Shown piece after piece: positions 6,220 through 57,336 of a stretch of 64,000 nucleotides of DNA; position 1 is the stretch's first letter, and every line of letters begins with the position of its first letter. Source of the DNA: an uncultured Bacilli bacterium (GTDB taxonomy: Bacteria; Bacillota_I; Bacilli_A; RFN20; CAG-826); assembly GCA_944349595.1 (NCBI GenBank), contig CALVNF010000006.1:1650-65649 (forward strand). The letters are read 5' to 3'. The notes beneath the pieces are model-generated. The model worked only from the letters and a program-made list of their open reading frames with translations. It was not told the DNA's origin and did not search any database. The translations under genes were made by a program, and so were the position numbers.

Positions 6220-8139
6220 ATGTCATTAGTTTCTTTTAATAATGTTAGTAAATATTATGGAAGCGATCTCATTTTAGATCATATTTCTTTTGTTATTAAC
6301 AAAAATGAAAAAATTGCATTAATTGGAAATAATGGCGAAGGCAAAACAACTATTTTAAAATTATTATTAAAAGAAGAATTACCAACTTTAATTTCAAAAG
6401 AAGATAAGCCTGGAGAAATATCAATTATTAAAAATCTAAAAATTGGTTATTTAAATCAGAATTTAATTTCTGATTTAAATAATACAGTTATTGAAGAATT
6501 ATTATTAGTTTTTAAAAATACTATTAAAAAAGAACAAGAATTAAATGAATTTTTAAAAATCTTATACGTTAATCCAAATGATTTAAAATTAATTGAAAAA
6601 TATAATAATTTATTAGAAGAATTTAAAGAATTACGAGGTTATACATATAAATCTGATATTAAAAATTATTTAGCAAGATTTAATTTTGACGAATCATATT
6701 ATAATAAAAAAATCTCAACCTTATCTGGTGGAGAAAGAATGAAAATTGGTTTTATTAAATTATTGTTATTTAATTATGATTTATTATTATTAGATGAACC
6801 AACTAACTATATTGATGTTAGTAGCATTGAATGGTTAGAAAACTTTATTAAATTATATAAGGGTACTGTTTTATATATTTCTCATGATATTTATTTTATT
6901 AAAGAAACTGCAAATAAAATATTAGAATTAAATAACCATAAATTAACAACATATAACACTAATTACGATAACTATATAAAATTAAAAGAAGAAAGATATA
7001 AAAATTTATTAAAAGAAAGCAAAAAACAAGATGATGAAATTGAAAAACTACAGCGATTCATTACTTTTTATAAACCAAAACCTAGATTTGTATCAAGAGC
7101 TAAAGATAAAGAAAAGAAATTAGAAAAAATATTAAATAACAAGGTAATTATTGAAAAAGAAAACCATAAAAATATAAATATCAAATTATCTTCAAATAAT
7201 TTAACAAATAAAGAAATATTAAATGTAAAAGATCTTGTTGTTGGCTATGATAATAAAGCTTTATTAAAAAGTATCTCATTTGATTTATATTCTAATGATA
7301 AATTAGCAATTATGGGAGATAATGGAATTGGAAAATCAACACTATTAAAAACAATTGCTAAGAAAATAAACCAAATAAGTGGTGAAGTTATTTATAAAAG
7401 AAAACTAAATATTGGTTATTTTGAACAATTTGATATTGATCAAAAATATTATAATTACACAATTATTGAATACTTAAGAAGTCAAAATATTGATGTTAAC
7501 GACAATAATTTACGAGGAGCATTAGGTAAATTTTATTTTAAAGGTGACGATATAAATAAAAATATAAGTTTATTATCAAATGGCGAGAAAAAAAGAGTAA
7601 TGTTATGTGATTTAACTCTAAAAACATATGATTTATTACTATTAGATGAACCAGCAAATCATTTAGATTTAGATACAAAAGAATCATTAATAAATTCTTT
7701 AAAAAATTATAACGGTGCAATAATTTTTATTTCTCATGATCGTTTCTTTGTAAATGAAATTGCAAATAAATTATTATTTTTAACAAATAAAAATAATTAT
7801 TATATTGATGGAAATTATGATGATTTCTTATTAGAAAAAGAAAAAATTGATAATATTTATAATAAAGAACAAAATAACGAAGAAAAAATTAATCAAGAAC
7901 ATCAAAATATTGAATTACAAAATACTAATCAAACTAATAAATCAAAGCTATCAAAAAATGCGATAAATAAAATAAATAATGAAATAAAAGAAATAGAAAA
8001 TAAATTAAAAGAAATTGAAGACTTTTTAAATAATGCGAATTATAATGATTATGAAAAAATAAAACAATTACAAGAAGAAAAAAATGAACTTGAAGAAAAA
8101 TATGTAACATATTTAGAAGATTTAGAAAAAAATACTTAG
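6220..8139 (+). CDS. ABC-F family ribosome-associated ATPase (YdiF/YfmR/Uup-like)
   Basis: Two NBDs (GNNGEGKT/LSGGE/LLLLDEPTN and GDNGIGKS/LSNGE/LLLLDEPAN), no TM segments, C-terminal coiled coil. Confidence 0.92.
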   Translation: MSLVSFNNVSKYYGSDLILDHISFVINKNEKIALIGNNGEGKTTILKLLLKEELPTLISKEDKPGEISIIKNLKIGYLNQNLISDLNNTVIEELLLVFKNTIKKEQELNEFLKILYVNPNDLKLIEKYNNLLEEFKELRGYTYKSDIKNYLARFNFDESYYNKKISTLSGGERMKIGFIKLLLFNYDLLLLDEPTNYIDVSSIEWLENFIKLYKGTVLYISHDIYFIKETANKILELNNHKLTTYNTNYDNYIKLKEERYKNLLKESKKQDDEIEKLQRFITFYKPKPRFVSRAKDKEKKLEKILNNKVIIEKENHKNINIKLSSNNLTNKEILNVKDLVVGYDNKALLKSISFDLYSNDKLAIMGDNGIGKSTLLKTIAKKINQISGEVIYKRKLNIGYFEQFDIDQKYYNYTIIEYLRSQNIDVNDNNLRGALGKFYFKGDDINKNISLLSNGEKKRVMLCDLTLKTYDLLLLDEPANHLDLDTKESLINSLKNYNGAIIFISHDRFFVNEIANKLLFLTNKNNYYIDGNYDDFLLEKEKIDNIYNKEQNNEEKINQEHQNIELQNTNQTNKSKLSKNAINKINNEIKEIENKLKEIEDFLNNANYNDYEKIKQLQEEKNELEEKYVTYLEDLEKNT

Positions 8140-8155
8140 GTTTTGCAGAGTTTTT
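8126..8155 (+). repeat. Dispersed ~30-bp motif, copy 2
   Basis: AAAAAAATACTTAGGTTTTGCAGAGTTTTT, 28/30 identical to copy 1. Overlaps the ABC-F stop codon. Confidence 0.75.
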
Positions 8156-8184
8156 AAAAAATATTAACTTTTGGAGGATAAATT

Positions 8185-9441
8185 ATGTCATATAATGCAA
8201 TAAAAAAAGAAGATAAAGAAATATACAACTTAATAAAAGCTGAAGAAAAAAGACAAAATAAATATAATGCAGAATTAATTGCTAGTGAAAATTTTGTATC
8301 AAAAGCTGTTTTACAAGCACAAGGCTCCATATTAACAAATAAATATGCTGAAGGCTATCCTAGCAAAAGATATTATGGAGGTTGTCAATATATTGATCAA
8401 ATTGAAAATCTTGCAATTGAAAGATTAAAAAAATTGTTCAATGTTAAATATGTAAACGTTCAACCTCATTCTGGAAGTCAAGCAAATATGGCTGCAATTA
8501 GAAGTTTAATTAATCATGGAGATGTAATTTTAGGAATGTCTCTTGATTCAGGTGGTCATTTAACTCATGGTTATAAGTTATCATTTTCTGGACAAGATTA
8601 TATTTCTTATACATATGGAGTTAATAAAGATACGGGTTTAATTGATTATGATGAAGTTTTAAAAATTGCAAAAGAAGTTAAACCAAAATTAATTATTTGT
8701 GGTGCAAGTGCATATCCAAGAAAAATATCATTTAAAAAATTTAAAGAAATAGCTGATGAAGTAGGGGCATATTTAATGGCTGATATTGCCCACATTGCCG
8801 GACTTATTGCAACAGGATTTCATGAATCTCCAGTTAATTATGCTGATATTATAACAAGTACAACTCATAAGACTCTAAGAGGTCCAAGAGGTGGAATTAT
8901 AATGACAAATAATGAAGAAATTGCAAAGAAAATGAATAAAATGTTATTTCCTGGTTGTCAAGGTGGACCTCTTGAACATGTAATTGCTGCAAAAGCTATT
9001 TGTTTTAAAGAAGATTTAATGCCAGAATACAAAACTTATATTAAACAAGTAATTTTAAATGCAAAAGCAATGTCTGATGAATTTATAAAATTAGGATATA
9101 ACATTATAAGTGGGGGAACTGATAATCATTTATTTTTAATTGATATTAAAAAATCAAAAAATTTAACCGGCTTACAAGCTCAAGAATTATTAGAAAATGT
9201 AAATATTACTTGCAATAAAAATTCAATTCCAAACGACCAAGAAAAACCAGCTTATACAAGTGGTTTAAGAATTGGAACACCAGCTTTAACAACTCGAGGT
9301 TTTAAAGAAAAAGATTTTATAAAACTAGCTCATTTAATTGATGATACTTTCAATAATAAAGATAATAATGAAAAGCTAAAAGATATTAAAGAAGAAGTAA
9401 TTAAATTAGTTAAATCTCATCCACTAAGATATAAATATTAA
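8185..9441 (+). CDS. glyA: Serine hydroxymethyltransferase
   Basis: [34 protein letters not shown] (PLP lysine), SGLRIGTPA. Confidence 0.98.
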
Positions 9442-9468
9442 AAAAAGCGGATCAAATTCCGCTTTTTT
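9441..9468. terminator. Bidirectional terminator between convergent glyA and ldh
   Basis: AAAAAAGCGGA-TCAAAT-TCCGCTTTTTT. Confidence 0.85.
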
Positions 9469-9487
9469 CTTATCTATTTATATATTA

Positions 9488-10444
9488 TTAATCTTTAATT
9501 TCTAATTCTTTATAAGTTTCTTTTAATTTATTAGCACTGAGAATTAATTTTAATACTTCTTCATAAGAATATTCTAAATGTAGTCTTGTAATAATTCCAT
9601 TTCTTCCAACAACACATGGAAGTGAAATATAAACTCCATCAATTTCTCCATCAAATTCATTTTCAACAAGTGTAGATACTGTTAAAACTGATCTATTATT
9701 GTTTAAAATAGTTGATACAATTTTTGCAGTTGCTAATCCAATTGCATAATATGTAGCACCTTTTTTCTTAATAATTTCATAGGCTGCATCTTTAACTTTA
9801 TCATGAAGCGAAGATAAAAGTTTTAATCCTTCAGATCCTTTTTCTTTTATTAAATATTCTTTTAATGGAATTTGAGCAATATTTGATACAGAAAAGGCAC
9901 TAACTTCACTATCACCATGTTCTCCAATTACATAAGCATGAACATTTCTTGGATCAACATCAGCAACTTCTGAAATTAAATATCTTAATCTTGAACTATC
10001 TAATACAGTACCAGATCCAATAACTCTATTAGGACTAATGCCTAATTTTTTGTATGTATAATAAGATAATACATCAACTGGATTTGAAACAACTAAGACA
10101 ACCGCGTCTTCATCTAAGTTAGGTTTAATTTGATCTAATATAGAATCAAATATTTTCATATTTCTTTTTAATAAATCGAGTCTAGTTTCTCCTGGTTTTT
10201 GAGCAGCACCAGCTGTAATGATAATTATATGAGCATCTTTTACATCATTATAATCTCCAGCTTTAATTAATTTTGGAGAAACAAATGGAACTCCATGCAT
10301 CATATCAAGAGCATCGCCTTCAACTTTTTCTTTTACAATATCAATAATCACTATTTCATTAACATAATCTTTCATCATTAATGTATAAGCAATCGTGCTT
10401 CCTACCATGCCATCGCCAATAATTACAACTTTTCTATTATCCAT
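9488..10444 (-). CDS. ldh: L-lactate dehydrogenase
   Basis: IIGDGMVG, GETRLDL, VVSNPVD, GTVLDSSRLR, GEHGDS, KKGATYYAIG. Confidence 0.96.
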   Translation of the reverse strand: MDNRKVVIIGDGMVGSTIAYTLMMKDYVNEIVIIDIVKEKVEGDALDMMHGVPFVSPKLIKAGDYNDVKDAHIIIITAGAAQKPGETRLDLLKRNMKIFDSILDQIKPNLDEDAVVLVVSNPVDVLSYYTYKKLGISPNRVIGSGTVLDSSRLRYLISEVADVDPRNVHAYVIGEHGDSEVSAFSVSNIAQIPLKEYLIKEKGSEGLKLLSSLHDKVKDAAYEIIKKKGATYYAIGLATAKIVSTILNNNRSVLTVSTLVENEFDGEIDGVYISLPCVVGRNGIITRLHLEYSYEEVLKLILSANKLKETYKELEIKD

Positions 10445-47809: not shown

Positions 47810-48691
47810 ATGAAAAAGTTGGTATTAATTTTAAGTTCTTTATTAGTATTAACATCTTGTGGTAATACTAATAGTGATAATTCAATTAAACAAGAATTAA
47901 AAAATAATCAATTAGCTCAAATGCTTGAAGAAAATCAAGTTATATTAAACTTAACTCCAAATGGTTTATATAACGGAGCTAAGGGTAATAATTTAGAAGA
48001 TTATTATGTTGAAAATGGATTATTATTAACTCTTAATGTAGGTGATACATTACCTGAAAAAGATGAAATAACCTCAAGTGTTAAAGATAATGAATTTGCT
48101 GGTTGGGCTTATATTAATGATGAAGATGAAACAATATCTTATACAACATCTGTTATTGAAGGTATAAAGATGTATCATGCAACTTGGAATTATACTGGAG
48201 ATTATAGTGATATTGGAAATCAAACAAGTCAAACTACTACAACTAGTAATCCAACAACTGATACTACAACAAATACTGATACAACTAGTAGTACAAGTAT
48301 AAATGAAAATCTTGAAACGATTTACTTTATTGATCAAGGTTGGTGGAATGATTATGCAGCAGCTACCGGTATATATTTATTTGATGACGATAACAATCCT
48401 AAAGTAGCATGGCCTGGAGAAGCAATGAGTATTGCAAAAGAATATGATTCTACTCTTAAACGAAATGTTTGGTCATTTGAAGTAGATGTTAGTATTTATA
48501 ATAATTTAATATTTGTTAGAGGTGAAGTAAAAGATGGAACTTTTATTTCATGGAATAAACAAACAGTAGATATTAAATATGAAGAAGGTAAAAATGCATA
48601 TTTATTATGTGAAACTGGGGATGTTAGCAATGGTGATGAAAAAGCTACTGTTACATCTGGAGTTTGGGATAACGAATATGGACTTCTTTAA
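47810..48691 (+). CDS. Non-catalytic lipoprotein with a B-repeat module and a C-terminal CBM26-like starch-binding module
   Basis: Lipobox VLTS-C, FAGW...YHATW, Thr linker, TIYFIDQGWW...IYLFD...AWPGEAM...W.FEVD....NNLIFVR. Confidence 0.78.
   Translation: MKKLVLILSSLLVLTSCGNTNSDNSIKQELKNNQLAQMLEENQVILNLTPNGLYNGAKGNNLEDYYVENGLLLTLNVGDTLPEKDEITSSVKDNEFAGWAYINDEDETISYTTSVIEGIKMYHATWNYTGDYSDIGNQTSQTTTTSNPTTDTTTNTDTTSSTSINENLETIYFIDQGWWNDYAAATGIYLFDDDNNPKVAWPGEAMSIAKEYDSTLKRNVWSFEVDVSIYNNLIFVRGEVKDGTFISWNKQTVDIKYEEGKNAYLLCETGDVSNGDEKATVTSGVWDNEYGLL
48317..48691 (+). repeat. 375-bp inverted duplication, left arm (CBM26-like coding segment)
   Basis: About 93% identical (25 differences by hand count) to the reverse complement of 54403-54777, with a ~190-bp identical core. 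Confidence 0.92.
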
Positions 48692-48794: not shown

Positions 48795-49373
48795 ATGAAC
48801 AAAAGAAAGAAAACGCTACTAGCATTGGGTATGGTTCTTGCTCTTGCTGGTATAGCAACATCAAGTGCTTTTATTTATAAAGCAGCAACTGAGAGTGTTT
48901 CTGGTAATTTAGATTCAGCTATTTATTTAGACTGGGGAGATGATGAAGAAGGCTTTAAAGCAGATCCAGGTACAATGATTTATGGTGAATCTAAATTTAA
49001 ATCATTAACAGTTAAAGCACCACAAATGTCTGCAAGCATAACTAGTGGTACAGTTGATTTAACTTTCACATTAGCTACAAATGATGGCTTTATGGTAGAA
49101 GTATCAGATAAAGACTTTACAAAAGGTTCTGTAACGGCTGAAGATATTTTATTCACAGTTGATAAGGACAACTTAGATGAAACAATGAGCTTTTCTGTTA
49201 CAGAATTTACAAATGACATCACATTATATTTTAGATTGTCATTAAGTCATCCACCTGTAAAAGGTCAAGAAGAATTAGAATTAAGTGCAACATTTAAGGC
49301 ATCATTAACTTACAATAATGTTGGTGTAGCTAATTATACAATTAGCGAAGATGGTATTACAGCTGTAGCATAA
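48795..49373 (+). CDS. SipW-type prepilin-like secreted protein A
   Basis: Basic N-region and H-region ending TSSA-FIY, beta-rich 165-aa body, GGAGG SD, upstream of sipW. Confidence 0.65.
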   Translation: MNKRKKTLLALGMVLALAGIATSSAFIYKAATESVSGNLDSAIYLDWGDDEEGFKADPGTMIYGESKFKSLTVKAPQMSASITSGTVDLTFTLATNDGFMVEVSDKDFTKGSVTAEDILFTVDKDNLDETMSFSVTEFTNDITLYFRLSLSHPPVKGQEELELSATFKASLTYNNVGVANYTISEDGITAVA

Positions 49374-49382
49374 TGGGAGGAT

Positions 49383-50267
49383 ATGAAGATGAATAAAAAA
49401 TTATTAGGTTTATTAGTTGCTTCTGTCGGTTCAGTTGCTGCTGTTTGCACATCATTAGCTTTATATATTAGTGCTCCAGATGATGCAGGTTTTACAGTTG
49501 GTATTTCAACAGATACAGATGTAGCTTACACAATTACAAAACAAGAAGTTGTAACAAATAATACAACTATTAATCCAGGTCAAGGATTATCAGTTGAATA
49601 TAAGTTAGGTGCAAAATTAGGTGATAACTATACTCAACCATACGTAACTGGAAAATTAACAGTTACTGTTAGTGGTAATAAAGATGCACTTAAATATCTC
49701 CAAGGTGGAATGAAATTAACTTATGAACAAACTCCAGGAGATGAAAATGCTTCTACATATTTCTTTAATGGAGAAGATCAAACTATCTTTAATACATTAA
49801 CATTAGCTCCAGAAGGTGATTATTCATCATTAACTGGCGTATTAAATGCAACTGTTGATGGAACAAGCGGAACAAAAGCAGTTCTTTCATTAGGTTTAAC
49901 AGAAGATGGAAAAACTAACTTCTTAAGTGTTGCTGAAAGTGAATTAACTATTAATATCTCATTTGAAGAAGTCGGTGATGATTATCAATCAGCATATCTT
50001 GTTGGTGGTATGAATGGTTGGGCTGAAGAAGATGCTTATAGAATGGTTCCTAACATTTATTCATCCACTGCCTTTGAATGGATGTGGGTTGGAAGCAGTA
50101 CATTACTTCCAGAAGGTACTGAATTTCTAGGTAAAATTGGAGATACATATTCACATCCTAATAATAATCAAAAAGCACCTGCAAATGTTGACATTATTTA
50201 TTGGGGTGGTGGCAATGTTGCAAGTGGATCTAAATGGGAGGTTAACACCACTACTGGAGGTCAATAA
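49383..50267 (+). CDS. SipW-type prepilin-like protein B with a C-terminal SusE/X25-like carbohydrate-binding module
   Basis: Signal ending TSLA-LY, beta-rich body, then YLVGGMNGW...YRM...EWMW...LPEGTEF. Confidence 0.62.
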   Translation: MKMNKKLLGLLVASVGSVAAVCTSLALYISAPDDAGFTVGISTDTDVAYTITKQEVVTNNTTINPGQGLSVEYKLGAKLGDNYTQPYVTGKLTVTVSGNKDALKYLQGGMKLTYEQTPGDENASTYFFNGEDQTIFNTLTLAPEGDYSSLTGVLNATVDGTSGTKAVLSLGLTEDGKTNFLSVAESELTINISFEEVGDDYQSAYLVGGMNGWAEEDAYRMVPNIYSSTAFEWMWVGSSTLLPEGTEFLGKIGDTYSHPNNNQKAPANVDIIYWGGGNVASGSKWEVNTTTGGQ

Positions 50268-50277
50268 TTAAATTAAT

Positions 50278-50307
50278 AATTCCTAAGGACTTCGGTCCTT
50301 AGGAATT
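50278..50307 (+). terminator. Strong hairpin with a cUUCGg tetraloop (terminator/attenuator)
   Basis: AATTCCTAAGGAC-TTCG-GTCCTTAGGAATT, a perfect 13-bp stem with only a weak U tract. Confidence 0.8.
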
Positions 50308-50355
50308 TCTTGTAATTATTTGTTTATTTAATTAATATATTATTTTGTAATATAT

Positions 50356-51042
50356 ATGAAGGTTTTATTTAATATATATAAATGGTTTATTTATATAATT
50401 TTAATATTGATTATTGGAAGTTCATTATGGAATATAATTGATAGAGCTAGTGGATATAACTTTTCTTGTTTTGGTTTAAGAAGTTGTGTTATATCTTCTG
50501 ATTCTATGTCATATGTTAGTGAATCTAATAAAGAATCATTAGAAGGTATTGATAATAGATTATATAAAAATGATCTTATTTTTAATATGGAAGTAAATTC
50601 TATAGATGATCTAAAAGTAAATGATGTAGTTACATATGTTACTGATAATAATCAATTAGTAACTCATAGAGTATATGAAATAGTAATTAAAGATGATAAA
50701 GGATATGTAGTTACAAAAGGTGATGCAAATAATACTGTTGATGGTTTAATTCCATTTGAAAATATTAAAGGTAAATATGTAGCTAAAATTCCTGGTATTG
50801 GAATAATAACTTTATATATTAATTCATATTATGGATTATTTGGTATTAGTTTTGTTTTGTTTTTTATCTTTTTAGGTTTATATATTGCTGAAGATAAAAA
50901 AGATGATGAAGAAAATAATAATAATAAAGATAATGTAATAGATAAAAAACAAAACAAATATTATTTAAGTTTTAAAAATATATTTAATGATGAATTTAAT
51001 AAATATATAAATGATAATACGGAGGATGTTAATAATGCCTAA
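50356..51042 (+). CDS. sipW: Signal peptidase I, SipW/ER type (S26B)
   Basis: N-terminal TM, ISSDSM (Ser), DDLKVNDVVTY, VTHRV (His), TKGDANNTVD, GKYVAKIPGIG, C-terminal TM. Confidence 0.88.
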   Translation: MKVLFNIYKWFIYIILILIIGSSLWNIIDRASGYNFSCFGLRSCVISSDSMSYVSESNKESLEGIDNRLYKNDLIFNMEVNSIDDLKVNDVVTYVTDNNQLVTHRVYEIVIKDDKGYVVTKGDANNTVDGLIPFENIKGKYVAKIPGIGIITLYINSYYGLFGISFVLFFIFLGLYIAEDKKDDEENNNNKDNVIDKKQNKYYLSFKNIFNDEFNKYINDNTEDVNNA

Positions 51043-51601
51043 TAAATCAAATAAATTATTAATAACTTCTATAATATCTATATTTAGTTTATTTACAATA
51101 TCTTTAACAAGTTCATTATTTATTAGTGTTCCAGATGATGATTTATCATTTAATATGATTGGAAAAGCAACTAGTAGTGTTAATGAAAATATAGTTACAA
51201 TATATTTTGTTGAAAAAAAATATTGGCATACTGGAAGTCCAGATACATATATATATTGTTTTAATAGTGAAACATCTGCAATTAATAGTTCTTTTCCAGG
51301 ACTTCCAATGGAAGAAGTTACTTATGATGCAAGTTATGATAATGGTAATGGAAGAAAACTAAGATCATATGAATTTGATACATCTCTATATGATACAATG
51401 ATTTTTACAAGAGTTAATCCTAGCTTTGTTCCTGGAAGTCATTTTGATGAAAATGATAATTATATGTATTGGGGTGGAAAGACTGAAAATATACCATATA
51501 ATGCTTCATATAATTTATATGCTACAAAAGATGGTGGTAGTTTATATAGTGGAATGCAAGTTGATTGGTTGGTTTTTAATCCTGATGACTGGGGTTTATA
51601 A
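51035..51601 (+). CDS. SipW-type secreted protein C: short N-terminal strand plus CBM26-like module
   Basis: Signal ending TSS-LF, then ISVPDD, then TIYFVEKKYW...TYIYCF...SFPGLPM...YDTMIFTR. GGAGG SD; overlaps the sipW stop. Confidence 0.65.
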   Translation: MPNKSNKLLITSIISIFSLFTISLTSSLFISVPDDDLSFNMIGKATSSVNENIVTIYFVEKKYWHTGSPDTYIYCFNSETSAINSSFPGLPMEEVTYDASYDNGNGRKLRSYEFDTSLYDTMIFTRVNPSFVPGSHFDENDNYMYWGGKTENIPYNASYNLYATKDGGSLYSGMQVDWLVFNPDDWGL

Positions 51602-54402: not shown

Positions 54403-54777
54403 TTAACGTAAACCGTAATTGCCATCCCAAACTCCAGATGTAACAGTAGCTTTTTCATCACCTTTGCTAGTATCCCCAGTTTCACATAATAAATATGCAT
54501 TTTTACCTTCTTCATATTTAATATCTACTGTTTGTTTATTCCATGAAATAAAAGTTCCATCTTTTACTTCACCTCTAACAAATATTAAATTATTATAAAT
54601 ACTAACATCTACTTCAAATGACCAAACATTTCGTTTAAGAGTAGAATCATATTCTTTTGCAATAATCATTGCTTCTCCAGGCCATGCTACTTTAGGATTG
54701 CCATCATCATCAAATAAATATATGCCAGTAGCTGCAGCTGATTCGTTCCACCAACCTTGATCGATAAAGTAAATTGT
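54403..54777 (-). repeat. 375-bp inverted duplication, right arm
   Basis: Reverse complement matches 48317-48691. Confidence 0.92.
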
Positions 54778-57336
54778 TACAATATTTTCATCTGGATCTG
54801 GTGCAGTACCTTTTTCAAAAATACCTTCAACTGTATTTCCATTTAATGCCATATTGACAGTAACTTTATTAGCAGCACTAACGTTATGTTCAACACCATT
54901 AACTTTAATTGCTTTTGCAACATATCCTTCATCTGGAGTTGCAGTATAAGTTACTGTTTGACCATATTTAACTTCATCGGCACTAACAGTAACAGTGCCT
55001 CCAGTTACTTCAGTGATTGTTGATGTATATGATTCTCTCATTGGTTGCCAATCTGTATCAACATAGGCTTTTGCAGTAACTTCTGCATAATCTTTAGATT
55101 TACCATCGTCGAAATTATACCATTTAGCATCATCACTTAATTCATATAAGGTTGTTGTTTCATCAAACTTAATATCGCTAGTTTGAGCTCCCCAATAACC
55201 AATTGATGTATCATGCCAATCTTGAGTTTCTTTATCAAATTCAGAATTCATTCTAACAAATTTAAATGAATCATATAATGTTGTATTTAAATCAAAATAT
55301 CTAAGATTTCTACCAGCTCCATCTTGATAGAATGGATCCCAGATATCATGGCTCATAATTTCACCAGGCCATACATTATCAATTTTATTTGTTTCATCAT
55401 TTGAATCCCAAGCATAAACAAATGTAGCAGCTCCGCCTTGATGCCACCAAGTTTTATCAACAAAATAAATTCTAACTATCTTATCTTGTTGTTTTTCAAA
55501 CATACCTTCAACTTTATTACCATTTAGTGGCATGTTAACAGTTACTTGATTATTTTCATCAACTGGGTATTCTTTATCATTAATTTTAATACCTAATACT
55601 TTATAATTTTCATCTGGAGTAGCAGTATAAGTTACAGGTTGGCCATATTTAGTTTCGTTTTCACTAGCAGTAACACTTCCTCCAGTTACTTCGCTAATTG
55701 TAGAAGCATATGATTTTCTCATTGGAGACCAAACTCCATCATCATAACTGCTTGCAGTTACTTCAGCATAACCTCGAAGTGCTTCATCAGTTGAATCTTT
55801 CCATTTAGCATCATCACTTAATTCATATAATGTAGTTGTAGAATTAAATGATAAATCATCAGTTTCAGCACCTAAATAATATTCGCTTTCATTAAATTCT
55901 GTTGTTTCTTTGTCAAATGCATTTTTAATTCTTACAAATTTAAATGAATCATATAAAGTAGTATTAAATTCAAAGTATCTAAGATTTCTTCCAGCTCCAT
56001 CTTGATAGAATGGATCCCAGATATCATGATTCATTTTTTCTCCTGGCCAGACATTTTCTATAGAAGTATCTTTTGAATTCCATACATAAATATATGTTTC
56101 TGCGGCATCTTTATGCCACCATTGTTTATCAACAAAATAAATTTTTGTAAATCTATCTTCTAATTTCTCAAAAACACCTTGTACTTTATTGCCACCTTCA
56201 GCCATGGTAGTTGTATAAGTAGTAGTGTTTTCTTCTAATTGATATTCTTTTTCATTAATTATAATTGCTTTTGCTTTATATCCAATATTAGCTGTTAATG
56301 TATAAGTAATTGTTTCTCCAGCAATTGCACTTTCTTTATCAACGCTAACACTTCCACCTTCACTTGGAATTATTGTAGAAGTATATTGTTCAGCAGCTTT
56401 CATAGTGAATACACCTTGAACTGTTAATCCACCTTCAACCATTGTAGTTTCATAAACAGTAGTAGTGAATTCTTTTGTGACATTATTTACAATTAAACCT
56501 TTAATTTCATATCCTTCATTTGCTTGAAGTCTAAATTGAATCTTATCTCCAACTAATCCTTCCATTGGAGATGCAGTTACTGTTCCACCTGTTGTATCTT
56601 TAATTGTTACTTTATAAACTTGAGGAACTGGTGGAAGTTCACTAAATTGACCTTGAGCTTTTAATCCACCTTCAACCATTGTAGTTGTATAAGTATTATC
56701 GGCTGTTAAAGTTACAGATTCATCATTAATTAACAATCCTGTTACTTCATATCCTTCATCTGCTTTTAAAGTGAATGTAATTTCTTCTCCAACTTCAGCT
56801 TTCATTAAAGATGCAGTTAGAGTTCCACCAACACTTTCAATAATATTTACATCATATAATGTTGGAGGGATTACTTCAAATAATCCTTCAGCTGTTAAAC
56901 CACCTTCAGGCATTGATACTTTTACTTGGTTATTAGAATCAACTGTTTTTATTTCATTATTAACTTTAATTCCTTTAACACTATATCCTTCATCTGGGGT
57001 TGCTGTATAAGTTATGACCTCACCAACGAGAGCCTTAGACTTATCTTGAGTAACTTTACCACCAACTGAATCTAATATTACACTTTCATAATAAGTTTCA
57101 ATACTAGTTGTGGTAGTAGTTGTAGTTGTTGTACCTGTGGTAGTACTAGTAGTCGTTGTACTTGTAGTAGCAGTAGTTGTTGAAGTTGTGCTAGTATTAG
57201 TTGTAGTTGTACTAGTAGTTGTTTGATTACTTGTTGAACTTGTCATACTAGTTGGATTATCTGATGGATGACAAGAAGTAATTAATAAACTTGCAACAAA
57301 AAGACTGCCAAATAAAGCAAAAATTTTTCTTTTCAT
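54403..57336 (-). CDS. Non-catalytic multi-module starch-binding lipoprotein (six Ig/B-repeat-like and three CBM26-like modules)
   Basis: Lipobox LITS-C, Thr stalk, six Y...I....GG.V......A..GE.ITYT.T.DEGY repeats, three IYF.D..WW...WPGE.M modules, no GH motifs. Confidence 0.82.
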   Translation of the reverse strand: MKRKIFALFGSLFVASLLITSCHPSDNPTSMTSSTSNQTTTSTTTTNTSTTSTTTATTSTTTTSTTTGTTTTTTTTTSIETYYESVILDSVGGKVTQDKSKALVGEVITYTATPDEGYSVKGIKVNNEIKTVDSNNQVKVSMPEGGLTAEGLFEVIPPTLYDVNIIESVGGTLTASLMKAEVGEEITFTLKADEGYEVTGLLINDESVTLTADNTYTTTMVEGGLKAQGQFSELPPVPQVYKVTIKDTTGGTVTASPMEGLVGDKIQFRLQANEGYEIKGLIVNNVTKEFTTTVYETTMVEGGLTVQGVFTMKAAEQYTSTIIPSEGGSVSVDKESAIAGETITYTLTANIGYKAKAIIINEKEYQLEENTTTYTTTMAEGGNKVQGVFEKLEDRFTKIYFVDKQWWHKDAAETYIYVWNSKDTSIENVWPGEKMNHDIWDPFYQDGAGRNLRYFEFNTTLYDSFKFVRIKNAFDKETTEFNESEYYLGAETDDLSFNSTTTLYELSDDAKWKDSTDEALRGYAEVTASSYDDGVWSPMRKSYASTISEVTGGSVTASENETKYGQPVTYTATPDENYKVLGIKINDKEYPVDENNQVTVNMPLNGNKVEGMFEKQQDKIVRIYFVDKTWWHQGGAATFVYAWDSNDETNKIDNVWPGEIMSHDIWDPFYQDGAGRNLRYFDLNTTLYDSFKFVRMNSEFDKETQDWHDTSIGYWGAQTSDIKFDETTTLYELSDDAKWYNFDDGKSKDYAEVTAKAYVDTDWQPMRESYTSTITEVTGGTVTVSADEVKYGQTVTYTATPDEGYVAKAIKVNGVEHNVSAANKVTVNMALNGNTVEGIFEKGTAPDPDENIVTIYFIDQGWWNESAAATGIYLFDDDGNPKVAWPGEAMIIAKEYDSTLKRNVWSFEVDVSIYNNLIFVRGEVKDGTFISWNKQTVDIKYEEGKNAYLLCETGDTSKGDEKATVTSGVWDGNYGLR

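What the first reader, a model, noticed from the sequence alone, without database searches (positions are those of the whole stretch)
49383..51190. Shared N-terminal strand L[YF]IS[AV]PDD-x(2-3)-F in subunits B and C; C is only strand plus CBM
Seen: after the predicted cleavage site B starts LYISAPDDAGFTVG and C starts LFISVPDDDLSFNMIG, although the rest of the two proteins is unrelated. In C the CBM26-like domain starts about 25 residues later, so C has no pilin body. Inference: this is a plug-in (donor) strand. C could dock a starch-binding domain onto a neighbouring subunit and cap or decorate the fibre, a small docking tag analogous in role to a dockerin.
Basis: partly seen in the sequence, partly recalled or inferred. 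Interest (0 to 1): 0.68.

Follow-up and report, generated by a model that had tools for sequence, protein, structure and literature searches.

The report
Plug-in strand tag on starch-binding proteins
Two secreted proteins beside a SipW-type signal peptidase in a tiny, probably wall-less gut bacterium share a short N-terminal tag; it most likely works like the Bacillus TasA/TapA donor strand, and one of the proteins is just this tag plus a swappable starch-binding domain.

Summary
L[YF]IS[AV]PDD occurs only twice in the six-frame translation of the 1.08-Mb genome. Both copies lie directly after the signal-peptide core of B and C, and nothing else in the two proteins is similar.

The locus is a conserved cassette, A - B - SipW-type peptidase, with an optional fourth gene. 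It sits beside amylase and pullulanase genes. A and B belong to unannotated families that are paralogous to each other and remotely TasA-like.

In distant relatives the fourth gene is a full B-like paralog carrying the same tag. In this genus it is C: leader, a tag of about 14 residues, a short linker and a CBM26-like domain. A sister genome has an identical leader and tag, but DNA identity drops from 97-100% to about 45-60% just after the tag, and the domain behind it is a different CBM subtype.

The closest precedent is Bacillus TapA, which has a complete domain plus an N-terminus that copies the TasA donor strand. Docking itself was not tested, because no co-fold was possible. Fold matches to donor-strand pilins are weak, and Pfam TasA does not match.

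Verdict: a new variant of a known kind. The scan has noted similar SipW/TasA-style fibres with sugar-binding passengers in other genomes.

The parts
48795..49373 (+). Gene A (192 aa): small secreted beta-sandwich protein, candidate fibre subunit. Leader ...ATSSA|FIYKAATESVSGNLDSAIYLDWG.
   Evidence: ORF. The family has 71 representatives and no Pfam match. AF2 pLDDT is about 90 for residues 61-192, but 21-39 are below 50 and 41-60 score about 57-62. hhalign to PF12389-type proteins gives P = 75%; to the B family, P = 94%.
49389..50267 (+). Gene B (292 aa from ATG 49389; the ORF opens at 49383): leader, shared tag, beta-sandwich body, C-terminal SusE/F-like starch-binding domain.
   Evidence: AF2 shows body strands at residues 49-196 and a second domain at 204-289. 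The profile hits SusF 4fe9 over AYvvGdmngW...YeMv with E = 0.0058.
49389..49460 (+). B signal peptide (MNKKLLGLLVASVGSVAAVCTSLA), predicted to be cut after Ala.
   Evidence: -3 Ser and -1 Ala are invariant in the B family. It aligns with GT-Y-A|L-F of PF12389-type proteins from sister genomes.
49461..49535 (+). B N-terminal extension LYISAPDDAGFTVGISTDTDVAYTI. The shared tag is its first 16 residues; the 8-residue motif is 49461-49484.
   Evidence: Conservation is 0.64, 0.49 and 0.48 for the three 10-residue blocks 21-50 that hold it (the first also includes four leader residues), against 0.29-0.66 for the rest; only blocks 81-90 and 201-210 equal or exceed 0.64. Yet pLDDT is below 50 in the monomer model.
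50278..50307 (+). Terminator-like hairpin between B and sipW: 13-bp stem, UUCG loop, T-rich tail.
   Evidence: dG -22.6 kcal/mol, z = -7.2.
50356..51042 (+). SipW-type (archaeal/ER-type, S26B) signal peptidase I, 228 aa.
   Evidence: TIGR02228 scores 54.9 bits against a cut-off of 51.85. The SipW model NF046067 gives E = 1.3e-14 over residues 12-198. Also.
51035..51601 (+). Gene C (188 aa): leader, tag, linker and CBM26-like domain. Its start overlaps the sipW stop.
51035..51115 (+). C signal peptide (MPNKSNKLLITSIISIFSLFTISLTSS).
   Evidence: Sequence; aligned with the B-family leaders.
51116..51157 (+). C tag LFISVPDDDLSFNM. The 8-residue motif is 51116-51139.
   Evidence: Of these 14 residues, 11 are invariant in all four C homologs (variable: I30, V32, D35), even where the CBM is only about 47-53% identical. 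DNA identity to the sister genome G048 falls from 98-100% to 60% and lower between the 60-nt windows 51076-51135 and 51136-51195.
51182..51598 (+). C passenger: CBM26-like starch-binding module.
   Evidence: BLASTP E = 1e-23 to 4e-25 to modules 1 and 2 of the 977-aa lipoprotein and to lipoprotein CBMs of strains L005 and G048; the window's own lipoprotein CBM only reaches E = 5e-12. Seven of nine paralogous modules hit Pfam CBM26 below threshold. The profile hits the R. bromii Amy4 CBM region with E = 0.0031. C itself gets no Pfam hit.

Best explanation
The shared motif is the start of the mature N-terminal extension of substrates of a dedicated SipW-type signal peptidase, in a divergent TasA-like fibre cassette (A - B - SipW, with an optional fourth gene).

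Shown:
- The peptidase type, the conserved cassette and its link to alpha-glucan genes.
- The conservation of the tag.
- The paralogy of the A and B bodies.
- The make-up of C as leader, tag and CBM26-like domain.
- The exchange of the passenger domain behind an unchanged tag between sister genomes.

Inferred mechanism:
- SipW cuts after the small residue that precedes L-[YF].
- The freed extension then acts as a donor strand. It consists of L[YF]IS.P.D followed by an alternating hydrophobic stretch (F-x-V-x-I in B, L-x-F-x-M in C). It inserts into the open beta-sandwich of a neighbouring subunit, as shown for TasA.
- B has a body, so it can both give and receive a strand, and it carries its own SusE/F-like starch-binding domain.
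- C has a strand but no acceptor body. Like TapA, it could only occupy the free groove at one end of a fibre. There it would act as initiator or cap and place a CBM26-like module at that end.
- A and B lie upstream of a strong hairpin, while sipW and C lie downstream and are translationally coupled. This fits abundant shaft proteins and a rare end protein.
- The genome appears to lack peptidoglycan transpeptidases and sortase. Such a self-assembling fibre would be one of the few ways for it to project starch-binding modules away from the membrane.
For: - The motif is unique to B and C in the genome, and it is the only similarity between them.
- The peptidase is SipW-type: TIGR02228 scores above its cut-off.
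- The B model finds a match in 15 of 201 genomes of the order. In the 13 regions then fetched, A-B-SipW lies in the same gene order in most, at GC 27-60%.
- The cassette repeatedly lies next to pullulanase, amylase, glycogen phosphorylase or branching enzyme genes.
- B-family tag: S24, A26, L27, Y28 and P32 are invariant. Its conservation equals that of the best core strands, yet pLDDT is below 50 in the AF2 monomer.
- A shows the same pattern: residues 21-39 have pLDDT below 50, while the G.LD.AI.L.WG segment is the most conserved part of the family.
- The A and B bodies are homologous (hhalign P = 94%, E = 1.3e-7).
- Both align to PF12389-type proteins of sister genomes over leader, extension and the 'PG' strand (P = 75% and 85%). 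That reference set itself hits AbpX (E = 8.8e-5) and TasA 5of1 (E = 0.036).
- B's S-x-A-L-Y matches their T-Y-A-L-F.
- Foldseek hits for A include donor-strand subunits: cannula CanA 9h8b (prob 1.00, TM 0.36/0.43), FimG, FimA and PapA.
- Fourth genes in L001, L003, L026 and L034 are B-like paralogs, or a larger protein, carrying the same tag.
- Each fourth-gene tag resembles its own genome's B more than the average B of other genomes; own B is the best or tied-best match in 4 of 5 genomes. In one genome both proteins have lost the Pro together.
- A is presumably cut by the same peptidase but lacks the S.P.D...F.V part, so the extended motif is not needed for cleavage.
- Passenger swap: sipW plus the C leader and tag are 97-100% identical in DNA between the window and G048, then identity falls to about 45-60%. 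The G048 CBM is closest to module 3 of its own large lipoprotein (46%), whereas the window's CBM is closest to the module 1/2 type.
- There is a hairpin after B, and sipW and C overlap.
- Precedents: TapA has a complete Ig fold and an N-terminus homologous to the TasA donor strand, it initiates fibres, and tapA-sipW overlap (PMC10151520). TasA assembles by donor-strand exchange (PMC9674648). C. perfringens has sipW-bsaA-bsaB-bsaC, with a vWA-domain protein (PMC11580942).
Against: - There is no direct test of docking. Structure jobs accept only native single chains and were capped at two, so no co-fold was possible.
- Pfam Peptidase_M73 and the NCBIfam SipW-cognate signal model do not match A, B or C.
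- No PDB sequence hit is significant; the archaeal strand-donating pilin 9p0a reaches only E = 0.47.
- Foldseek gives no hit with E < 1e-3 for A or B. TasA is not among the top 50, and generic jelly-roll proteins score as well as the pilins do.
- The hhalign matches are partly driven by the signal peptides.
- The B model is of only moderate quality (pLDDT 66), so 'not packed' could be a modelling failure.
- The invariance of the tag among C alleles partly reflects very recent shared ancestry of that DNA.
- The 22/24-nt identity between the B and C motifs could reflect a short gene-conversion tract rather than selection.
- Which groove (A's or B's) would take the strand is unknown.
Confidence: 0.5

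Rival explanations
1. The motif is only a processing and export signal. It would be the c-region plus early mature residues recognised by this cassette's own SipW, kept in C because C descends from a B-like paralog. After cleavage, C would be a free or loosely surface-associated starch-binding protein that joins no fibre.
For: The first residues (small-x-small | L-Y/F) coincide with the T-x-A|x-F motif of SipW-cognate signals in PF12389-type proteins. A second SipW-like cassette in the same genome has its own shared N-terminal 'dialect', SAW[YV]F..D, in both flanking substrates, which could equally mean peptidase-specific recognition. No docking evidence exists.
Against: A lies in the same operon with the same peptidase but lacks the S.P.D...F.V part. 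Conservation extends about 20-25 residues past the predicted cut, further than signal peptidases normally read. In TasA and TapA the same region is both cleavage context and donor strand (PMC10151520, PMC9674648), so the two roles do not exclude each other.
Confidence: 0.25
2. C is not cleaved. Its N-terminal hydrophobic segment acts as a signal anchor that holds the CBM on the membrane of this wall-less cell, and the motif is a juxtamembrane spacer inherited from B.
For: C has -3 Thr and -1 Ser rather than the S-x-A found in B. The genome shows no PBP transpeptidase or sortase, so membrane anchoring is the main way to display proteins, and most neighbouring CBM proteins are lipoproteins. In the C. 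perfringens BsaA model, subunits stay anchored by their signal peptide until SipW acts (PMC11580942).
Against: Thr and Ser are acceptable -3/-1 residues. The gene is translationally coupled to a dedicated signal peptidase. The tag is kept while the passenger is exchanged.
Confidence: 0.12
3. In B the segment is an ordinary strand of B's own fold (cis), and in C it is a functionless remnant of the deletion that removed the body.
For: The B model has only moderate confidence and was built from a shallow alignment, so failure to pack the strand is weak evidence. C clearly derives from a B-like ancestor.
Against: A remnant would be expected to decay. Instead the C tag is kept in all alleles found and matches B in 22/24 nt and 6/8 aa. 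The A model, which has high confidence, also leaves its conserved N-terminal segment unpacked. The recombination breakpoint respects the tag boundary.
Confidence: 0.08

Closest known systems
Bacillus subtilis tapA-sipW-tasA (TasA fibre, TapA initiator, SipW peptidase)
   Same: Both have a dedicated SipW-type peptidase in the operon. [quoted passage not shown] One partner (TapA, C) is a complete non-acceptor domain with a flexible N-terminal strand, and its gene overlaps sipW. The N-terminal strand of the fibre subunit completes the next subunit's beta-sandwich (PMC9674648).
   Different: A, B and C do not match Pfam Peptidase_M73 or TapA. The motif is different. The strand-only protein carries a carbohydrate-binding module instead of TapA's Ig domain, and B also carries a starch-binding domain. 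The cassette lies in a starch-utilisation locus rather than a biofilm operon, in an organism that appears to lack a cell wall. Docking is unproven here.
Clostridium perfringens sipW-bsaA-bsaB-bsaC
   Same: A SipW operon with several secreted substrates, including one with an adhesive (vWA) domain. An N-terminal disordered loop is donated to the neighbour (PMC11580942).
   Different: BsaA locks its subunits with an N-E-K isopeptide triad, and no such triad was examined or seen here. BsaC is a large protein, not a tag plus domain.
Archaeal strand-donating fibres (AbpA/AbpX bundling pili, Tafi pilus TafE, cannula CanA)
   Same: Small beta-sandwich or jelly-roll subunits with N-terminal donor strands that assemble without a chaperone. 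Some loci have dedicated signal peptidases and minor pilins (PMC9245690, PMC12337348, PMC12518558). CanA 9h8b is among the best structural hits for A.
   Different: All sequence and fold similarity is weak: TM 0.36-0.43 for CanA, and E = 0.47 for the Tafi pilin. No CBM passengers have been described for these fibres.
Dockerin-cohesin amylosome of Ruminococcus bromii, and SusE/SusF of Bacteroides
   Same: The functional goal is the same: to gather several starch-binding modules and enzymes at the cell surface. The C-type module profile hits the Amy4 CBM region, and B's C-terminal domain hits SusF.
   Different: There is no dockerin, cohesin or outer membrane here. The proposed attachment is beta-strand complementation by a peptide of about 15 residues. 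It would be irreversible and limited to the fibre end, not a Ca-dependent plug-and-socket pair.
Chaperone-usher pilus tip adhesins (FimH, PapG)
   Same: A sugar-binding domain placed at the end of a donor-strand fibre. FimG, FimA and PapA appear among the fold hits for A.
   Different: The polarity is opposite. FimH has an acceptor pilin domain and no donor strand, whereas C has a donor strand and no acceptor. There is no chaperone or usher here.

Membership tests
TasA/camelysin family (Pfam PF12389 Peptidase_M73), for A and B | Match to the family HMM above the gathering score | tested here: not met
   No Pfam hit for A, B or C at E <= 0.1. None among 47 members of the A family. No PF12389 match in the whole genome at E <= 1, while the B. 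subtilis control is found.
TasA/camelysin family (Pfam PF12389 Peptidase_M73), for A and B | Remote profile-profile homology to bona fide family members | tested here: inconclusive
   hhalign of the A family against PF12389-type proteins gives P = 75%, E = 2.5e-5; the B family gives P = 85%, E = 6.8e-6. Both cover only the first 75 or so residues, including the signal peptide.
TasA/camelysin family (Pfam PF12389 Peptidase_M73), for A and B | SipW-type (S26B) signal peptidase encoded in the same operon | tested here: met
   TIGR02228 scores 54.9 bits against a cut-off of 51.85 and 55.8 bits in the genome search. The gene order is conserved in relatives.
TasA/camelysin family (Pfam PF12389 Peptidase_M73), for A and B | SipW-cognate signal peptide with [ST]-x-A | x-[FYW] | tested here: inconclusive
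   B has S-L-A|L-Y and sister-genome PF12389 proteins have T-Y-A|L-F; C has T-S-S|L-F and A has S-S-A|F-I. However, no NCBIfam signal-peptide model (such as TIGR04088) hit at E <= 0.1.
TasA/camelysin family (Pfam PF12389 Peptidase_M73), for A and B | Jelly-roll or beta-sandwich fold similar to TasA (5OF1/8AUR) | tested here: inconclusive
   The AF2 models are beta-sandwiches. Foldseek against the PDB gives only E > 1e-3 hits, a mix of jelly-rolls and donor-strand pilins, and TasA is not in the top 50.
TasA/camelysin family (Pfam PF12389 Peptidase_M73), for A and B | Polymerisation by N-terminal donor-strand exchange | not testable with these tools
   No multimer prediction was available. The only indirect evidence is that the conserved N-terminal segments have low pLDDT in the monomer models.
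TapA-like strand-only initiator (functional class), for C | A complete, non-acceptor domain preceded by a flexible N-terminus homologous to that of the fibre subunit | tested here: met
   The tag is 6/8 identical to B's, and the rest is a stand-alone CBM module whose homologs in other proteins begin at the same IVTIYF strand without any tag.
TapA-like strand-only initiator (functional class), for C | Sequence homology to TapA itself | tested here: not met
   C has no Pfam or NCBIfam hit. The passenger is a CBM26-like module, not the TapA Ig domain.
TapA-like strand-only initiator (functional class), for C | The N-terminal peptide triggers or joins polymerisation of the fibre subunit | not testable with these tools
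   Requires a co-fold or biochemistry.
CBM26 (Pfam PF16738), for the C passenger | HMM match above the gathering score (28.1 bits) | tested here: not met
   C gets no hit. Seven of nine paralogous modules hit below threshold, best E = 3.1e-4. The profile of the modules hits the R. bromii Amy4 CBM repeats with E = 0.0031. 'CBM26-like' is therefore a reasonable label, but membership is not formal.
Dockerin (type I/II) | Duplicated Ca-binding F-hand segment matching the Pfam dockerin model, with a cohesin partner | tested here: not met
   B and C have no Pfam hit of any kind in this region. The analogy concerns role only.

The most novel reading that the evidence does not exclude
A wall-less gut bacterium builds a chaperone-free donor-strand fibre dedicated to starch capture. 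A plug-in strand of about 15 residues serves as a general attachment tag, behind which carbohydrate-binding passengers are exchanged by recombination between strains. This would be a non-cohesin, dockerin-like system for assembling an amylosome-type surface apparatus.
Probability: 0.3. Interest if true: 0.75.

Novelty: new variant of a known kind. Interest (0 to 1): 0.5.

Why it matters
If the tag really docks, three things follow.
- It extends the TasA/TapA principle from biofilm scaffolds to nutrient capture. One short N-terminal strand would decide which protein joins a fibre, here a fibre carrying starch-binding modules next to amylase and pullulanase genes.
- It would show how very small, apparently wall-less gut Bacilli project binding modules away from the membrane without sortase pili or cohesin-dockerin pairs.
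- It would offer a very small natural tag for attaching passenger domains to a self-assembling protein fibre.

The strain-level exchange of passengers and the high divergence of A and B also make this locus a candidate for niche or antigenic variation. If the tag does not dock, the finding reduces to a conserved SipW-type leader shared by paralogs, which is ordinary.

Tried and rejected
- Pfam and NCBIfam scans of A, B, C and the fourth-gene proteins gave no family for A, B or C.
- Profile searches of the PDB with the A and B alignments gave nothing significant, apart from SusF for B's C-terminal domain.
- Foldseek of both AF2 models against the PDB gave only weak, mixed jelly-roll and pilin hits, so no fold assignment to TasA could be made.
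- The search for related loci with the deep A alignment failed because no conserved stretch was available. With the B alignment it returned four loci: the sister-genus genome again, two new B relatives (one a MAG named Candidatus Alectryobacillus merdavium, Bacilli incertae sedis) and one weak partial match.
- A leader-plus-tag HMM run over 401 genomes of the order found strong hits only in B and fourth-gene proteins. The weaker hits were divergent B-like proteins, other SipW-type leaders, and one 796-aa protein next to a SipW-like peptidase. It found no further 'tag plus foreign domain' proteins like C outside this genus.
- My first motif regex was too strict and missed true homologs. I replaced it with HMM-based annotation.
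- Own-genome co-variation of the B and fourth-gene tags is only a modest trend: own B is best or tied-best in 4 of 5 genomes. I do not treat it as proof.
- I considered an isopeptide lock like that of BsaA but did not pursue it, as nothing pointed to a conserved N-E-K triad.
- A co-fold of the tag with A or B could not be run.
Full report
**1. What is there**

The region 42.3-57.3 kb of the window encodes these genes:
- a lipoprotein pullulanase and a lipoprotein alpha-amylase;
- a lipoprotein with a CBM;
- gene A (48795-49373);
- gene B (ORF 49383-50267);
- a 228-aa peptidase (50356-51042);
- gene C (ORF 51011-51601);
- a cysteine-peptidase-like protein and two small lipoproteins;
- a 977-aa lipoprotein with several CBMs, on the other strand.

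The peptidase matches the archaeal/SipW-type signal peptidase I model TIGR02228 above its cut-off (54.9 against 51.85 bits). It also aligns to the SipW model over residues 12-198 (55.8 bits).

Ribosome-binding sites suggest that B starts at ATG 49389 (8 nt after GGAGG), as in its homologs. They suggest that C starts at ATG 51035 (9 nt after GGAGG), which overlaps the sipW stop codon.

The genome is 1.08 Mb, 25.8% GC and 97% complete. It shows no PBP transpeptidase and no sortase, so it is probably wall-less. A MAG carrying a distant (about 34% identical) B homolog is named Candidatus Alectryobacillus merdavium, classed as Bacilli incertae sedis.

**2.

B reads ...CTSLA|LYISAPDDAGFTVGIS and C reads ...LTSS|LFISVPDDDLSFNMIG.
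- The strict motif, and three looser versions of it, occur only at these two places in the six-frame translation of the whole genome.
- BLASTP of B against C aligns only the leader plus motif (E = 6e-4). Every other segment has E > 1.
- The eight motif codons are 22/24 nt identical, whereas the leader DNA is 46/72 identical.
- C's similarity to other CBM modules starts at about residue 49-53. Mature C is therefore about 22 residues of tag and linker followed by one CBM, with no pilin-like body.

**3. Conservation**
- B has 18 database homologs. S24, A26, L27, Y28 and P32 are invariant and D34 is nearly so, down to 33% overall identity.
- Across 14 B-type proteins from genomes of 27-60% GC, blocks 21-50, which hold the mature N-terminal ~25 residues, score 0.64, 0.49 and 0.48. 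The body and the CBM range from 0.29 to 0.66, and only blocks 81-90 and 201-210 equal or exceed 0.64.
- The B model finds a match in 15 of 201 genomes sampled from the order. In the fetched regions, A - B - SipW lies in the same gene order in most.
- The cassette lies next to pullulanase and amylase, or glycogen phosphorylase and branching enzyme, in several of them.

**4. The fourth gene**

In L001 (56% GC), L003 and L026, the gene after sipW is a full B-like paralog with a body and a B-type C-terminal domain. In L034 it is a 452-aa protein. All four carry a B-like tag: FYLRSPSD-LEVGITIG, FIVTPSD-KEINIKV, KYNILPNN-QVANIQIS and TFLNSNGASKMDIAIS.

Each tag resembles the B of its own genome more than it resembles the average B of other genomes. 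Own B is the best or tied-best match in 4 of 5 genomes. In L034, both B and the fourth protein have lost the Pro together. This is a modest trend, not proof.

Only in the window's genus is the fourth gene reduced to tag plus CBM.

**5. Modularity**

C has four database homologs. The first 41 residues (leader plus SLFISVPDxDLSFNM) are nearly all invariant: 36 of 41 columns, with the substitutions conservative. Meanwhile the domain behind them falls to 47-53% identity.

In DNA, the window and the same-genus genome G048 are 97-100% identical (one 60-nt window at 93%) through sipW and the first ~100-120 nt of C. Identity then drops to 60% and further to about 45%, and the change falls between the windows 51076-51135 and 51136-51195, just after the tag.

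The G048 passenger is closest (46%) to the third CBM of its own large lipoprotein. The window's passenger is closest (33-39%) to the module 1/2 type of that protein and to the lipoprotein CBMs of strains L005 and G048. The same tag therefore carries two different CBM subtypes.

Between the window and strain L005 the pattern differs by gene:
- the enzymes, SipW and C are 98-100% identical;
- A is only 67% and B only 57% identical.

The SipW substrates thus behave as exchangeable, fast-diverging cassettes.

**6. What A and B are**

Neither A nor B has a Pfam, NCBIfam or PDB sequence match. The A family has 71 representatives in the 1.8-billion-protein library.

AlphaFold models:
- A was modelled from a 47-sequence alignment. 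It is a confident beta-sandwich (pLDDT about 90 for residues 61-192). Its residues 21-39 have pLDDT below 50, and blocks 41-60 average only 57-62. Yet G.LD.AI.L.WG (residues 36-48) is the most conserved segment of the family.
- B has mean pLDDT 66. It has a beta body (49-196) and a second domain (204-289), and residues 1-47 have pLDDT below 50.

Profile comparisons:
- The A and B bodies are paralogous (P = 94%, E = 1.3e-7 over about 100 residues).
- Both align to PF12389-type proteins found in sister genomes (P = 75% and 85%).
- That reference set hits AbpX (E = 8.8e-5) and TasA 5of1 (E = 0.036).
- B's S-x-A-L-Y lines up with their T-Y-A-L-F.

Foldseek gives no hit better than E = 1e-3. The list for A includes the donor-strand subunits CanA (9h8b, probability 1.00, TM 0.36/0.43), FimG, FimA and PapA. 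Generic jelly-rolls score equally well, and TasA is absent from the top 50.

PF12389 finds nothing in this genome. Membership in the TasA family is therefore not established. The evidence supports 'remote relative or analogue that probably works the same way'.

B's C-terminal domain aligns to the starch-binding protein SusF (4fe9, E = 0.0058). The C-type modules are CBM26-like, but only below threshold.

**7. Mechanism proposed**

The published precedent is close.
- TasA polymerises by donating its N-terminal strand to the next subunit (PMC9674648).
- TapA is a complete Ig domain with a flexible N-terminus homologous to that strand. TapA donates this N-terminus to start TasA filaments, it cannot sit inside a filament, and its gene overlaps sipW (PMC10151520).
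- C. perfringens sipW-bsaA-bsaB-bsaC adds a vWA-domain protein to such an operon (PMC11580942).

By analogy, I propose the following.
- SipW cuts before L-[YF].
- The freed extension of B inserts into a neighbouring A or B body.
- C has a strand but no acceptor body, so it could only fill the free groove at one fibre end. There it would act as initiator or cap and place a CBM at that end.

- The first two or three motif residues double as the SipW-cognate cleavage motif.
- 'Decorating' subunits along the fibre is unlikely.

A strong hairpin follows B (13-bp stem, dG -22.6 kcal/mol, z = -7.2), and sipW and C are translationally coupled. Both fit abundant A and B and a rare C.

A is presumably cut by the same peptidase but lacks the S.P.D...F.V part. 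This argues that the extended motif does more than direct cleavage.

**8. What remains open**

No tool here could co-fold or measure binding, so docking is inferred. Other open points:
- The acceptor (A or B) is unknown.
- The cleavage sites are predicted, not measured.
- The tag's invariance among C alleles partly reflects recent common ancestry of that DNA.
- The near-identical codons could reflect a short gene-conversion tract.
- The rivals (signal only, signal anchor, vestigial cis-strand) together keep about half of the probability.

**9. Novelty**

The kind of system is known: a SipW-dependent donor-strand fibre with a strand-only accessory protein.

The new elements are:
- the unannotated A and B families;
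- the starch-utilisation context in a probably wall-less gut bacterium;
- a strand-only protein whose passenger is a CBM;
- direct evidence that passengers are swapped behind a constant tag.

Earlier notes of this scan describe comparable SipW/TasA-style fibres with sugar-binding passengers, and a 'donor-only tip protein', in other genomes. I did not re-test those. I rate this a new variant of a known kind, of moderate interest.

Noticed in passing
G000 contig C1, locus L051 295-2578 (outside the window): The same genome holds a second SipW-like cassette. A 212-aa and a 218-aa secreted protein flank a 318-aa peptidase (TIGR02228 31.7 bits, below cut-off). Both substrates share their own N-terminal motif, SAWYFNED... 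and ASWVFLKDN..., which parallels the B/C pair.
   Followed up: partly
window 48795-50267 compared with L005 7394-8885: A and B are only 67% and 57% identical between two strains whose amylase, pullulanase, SipW, C and cysteine peptidase are 98-100% identical. Their GC content (33-34%) is also well above that of sipW (20%) and C (26%). This suggests cassette exchange or diversifying selection on the fibre subunits.
   Followed up: partly
L024 (G048:C1) about 6900-7800: In the same-genus genome the B gene carries an in-frame TGA (one stop inside the match; the remaining ORF is 189 aa), while A, sipW and a C allele with a different CBM are intact. This could be a pseudogene, an assembly error or recoding; it was not resolved.
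   Followed up: no
window 48299-48685 (+) and 54409-54795 (-): The CBM of the 302-aa lipoprotein and the third CBM of the 977-aa lipoprotein are nearly identical and lie in inverted orientation. They bracket A-B-sipW-C and the cysteine-peptidase block, so they could act as a substrate for inversion or gene conversion.
   Followed up: no
whole genome G000: No PBP transpeptidase (PF00905) and no sortase (PF04203) were found in a 97%-complete, 1.08-Mb, 25.8%-GC genome. The organism is probably wall-less, which fits the heavy use of lipoproteins in this locus.
   Followed up: partly
window 49989-50264: B's C-terminal domain (AYLVGGMNGW...YRMVPNI...FEWMW...YW) aligns to the Bacteroides starch-binding protein SusF (4fe9, E = 0.0058). 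It has no Pfam match, so it looks like an unannotated SusE/F-like starch-binding module in a Gram-positive lineage.
   Followed up: partly
L082 (G666:C3) 6700-10353: A 796-aa secreted protein with the leader ...IGAVFA|AFTLDPTNESKEIPSVNVDV lies directly upstream of a 405-aa SipW-like peptidase. This is a two-gene variant with a large passenger behind a similar leader.
   Followed up: no
L043, L044 (G024, G066; same family as the window's genome): Sister genomes carry canonical PF12389-type pairs (GGTYALF[ST]D...) next to a 259-aa SipW-like peptidase. The family therefore holds both the classical TasA-like cassettes and the divergent A/B type.
   Followed up: partly
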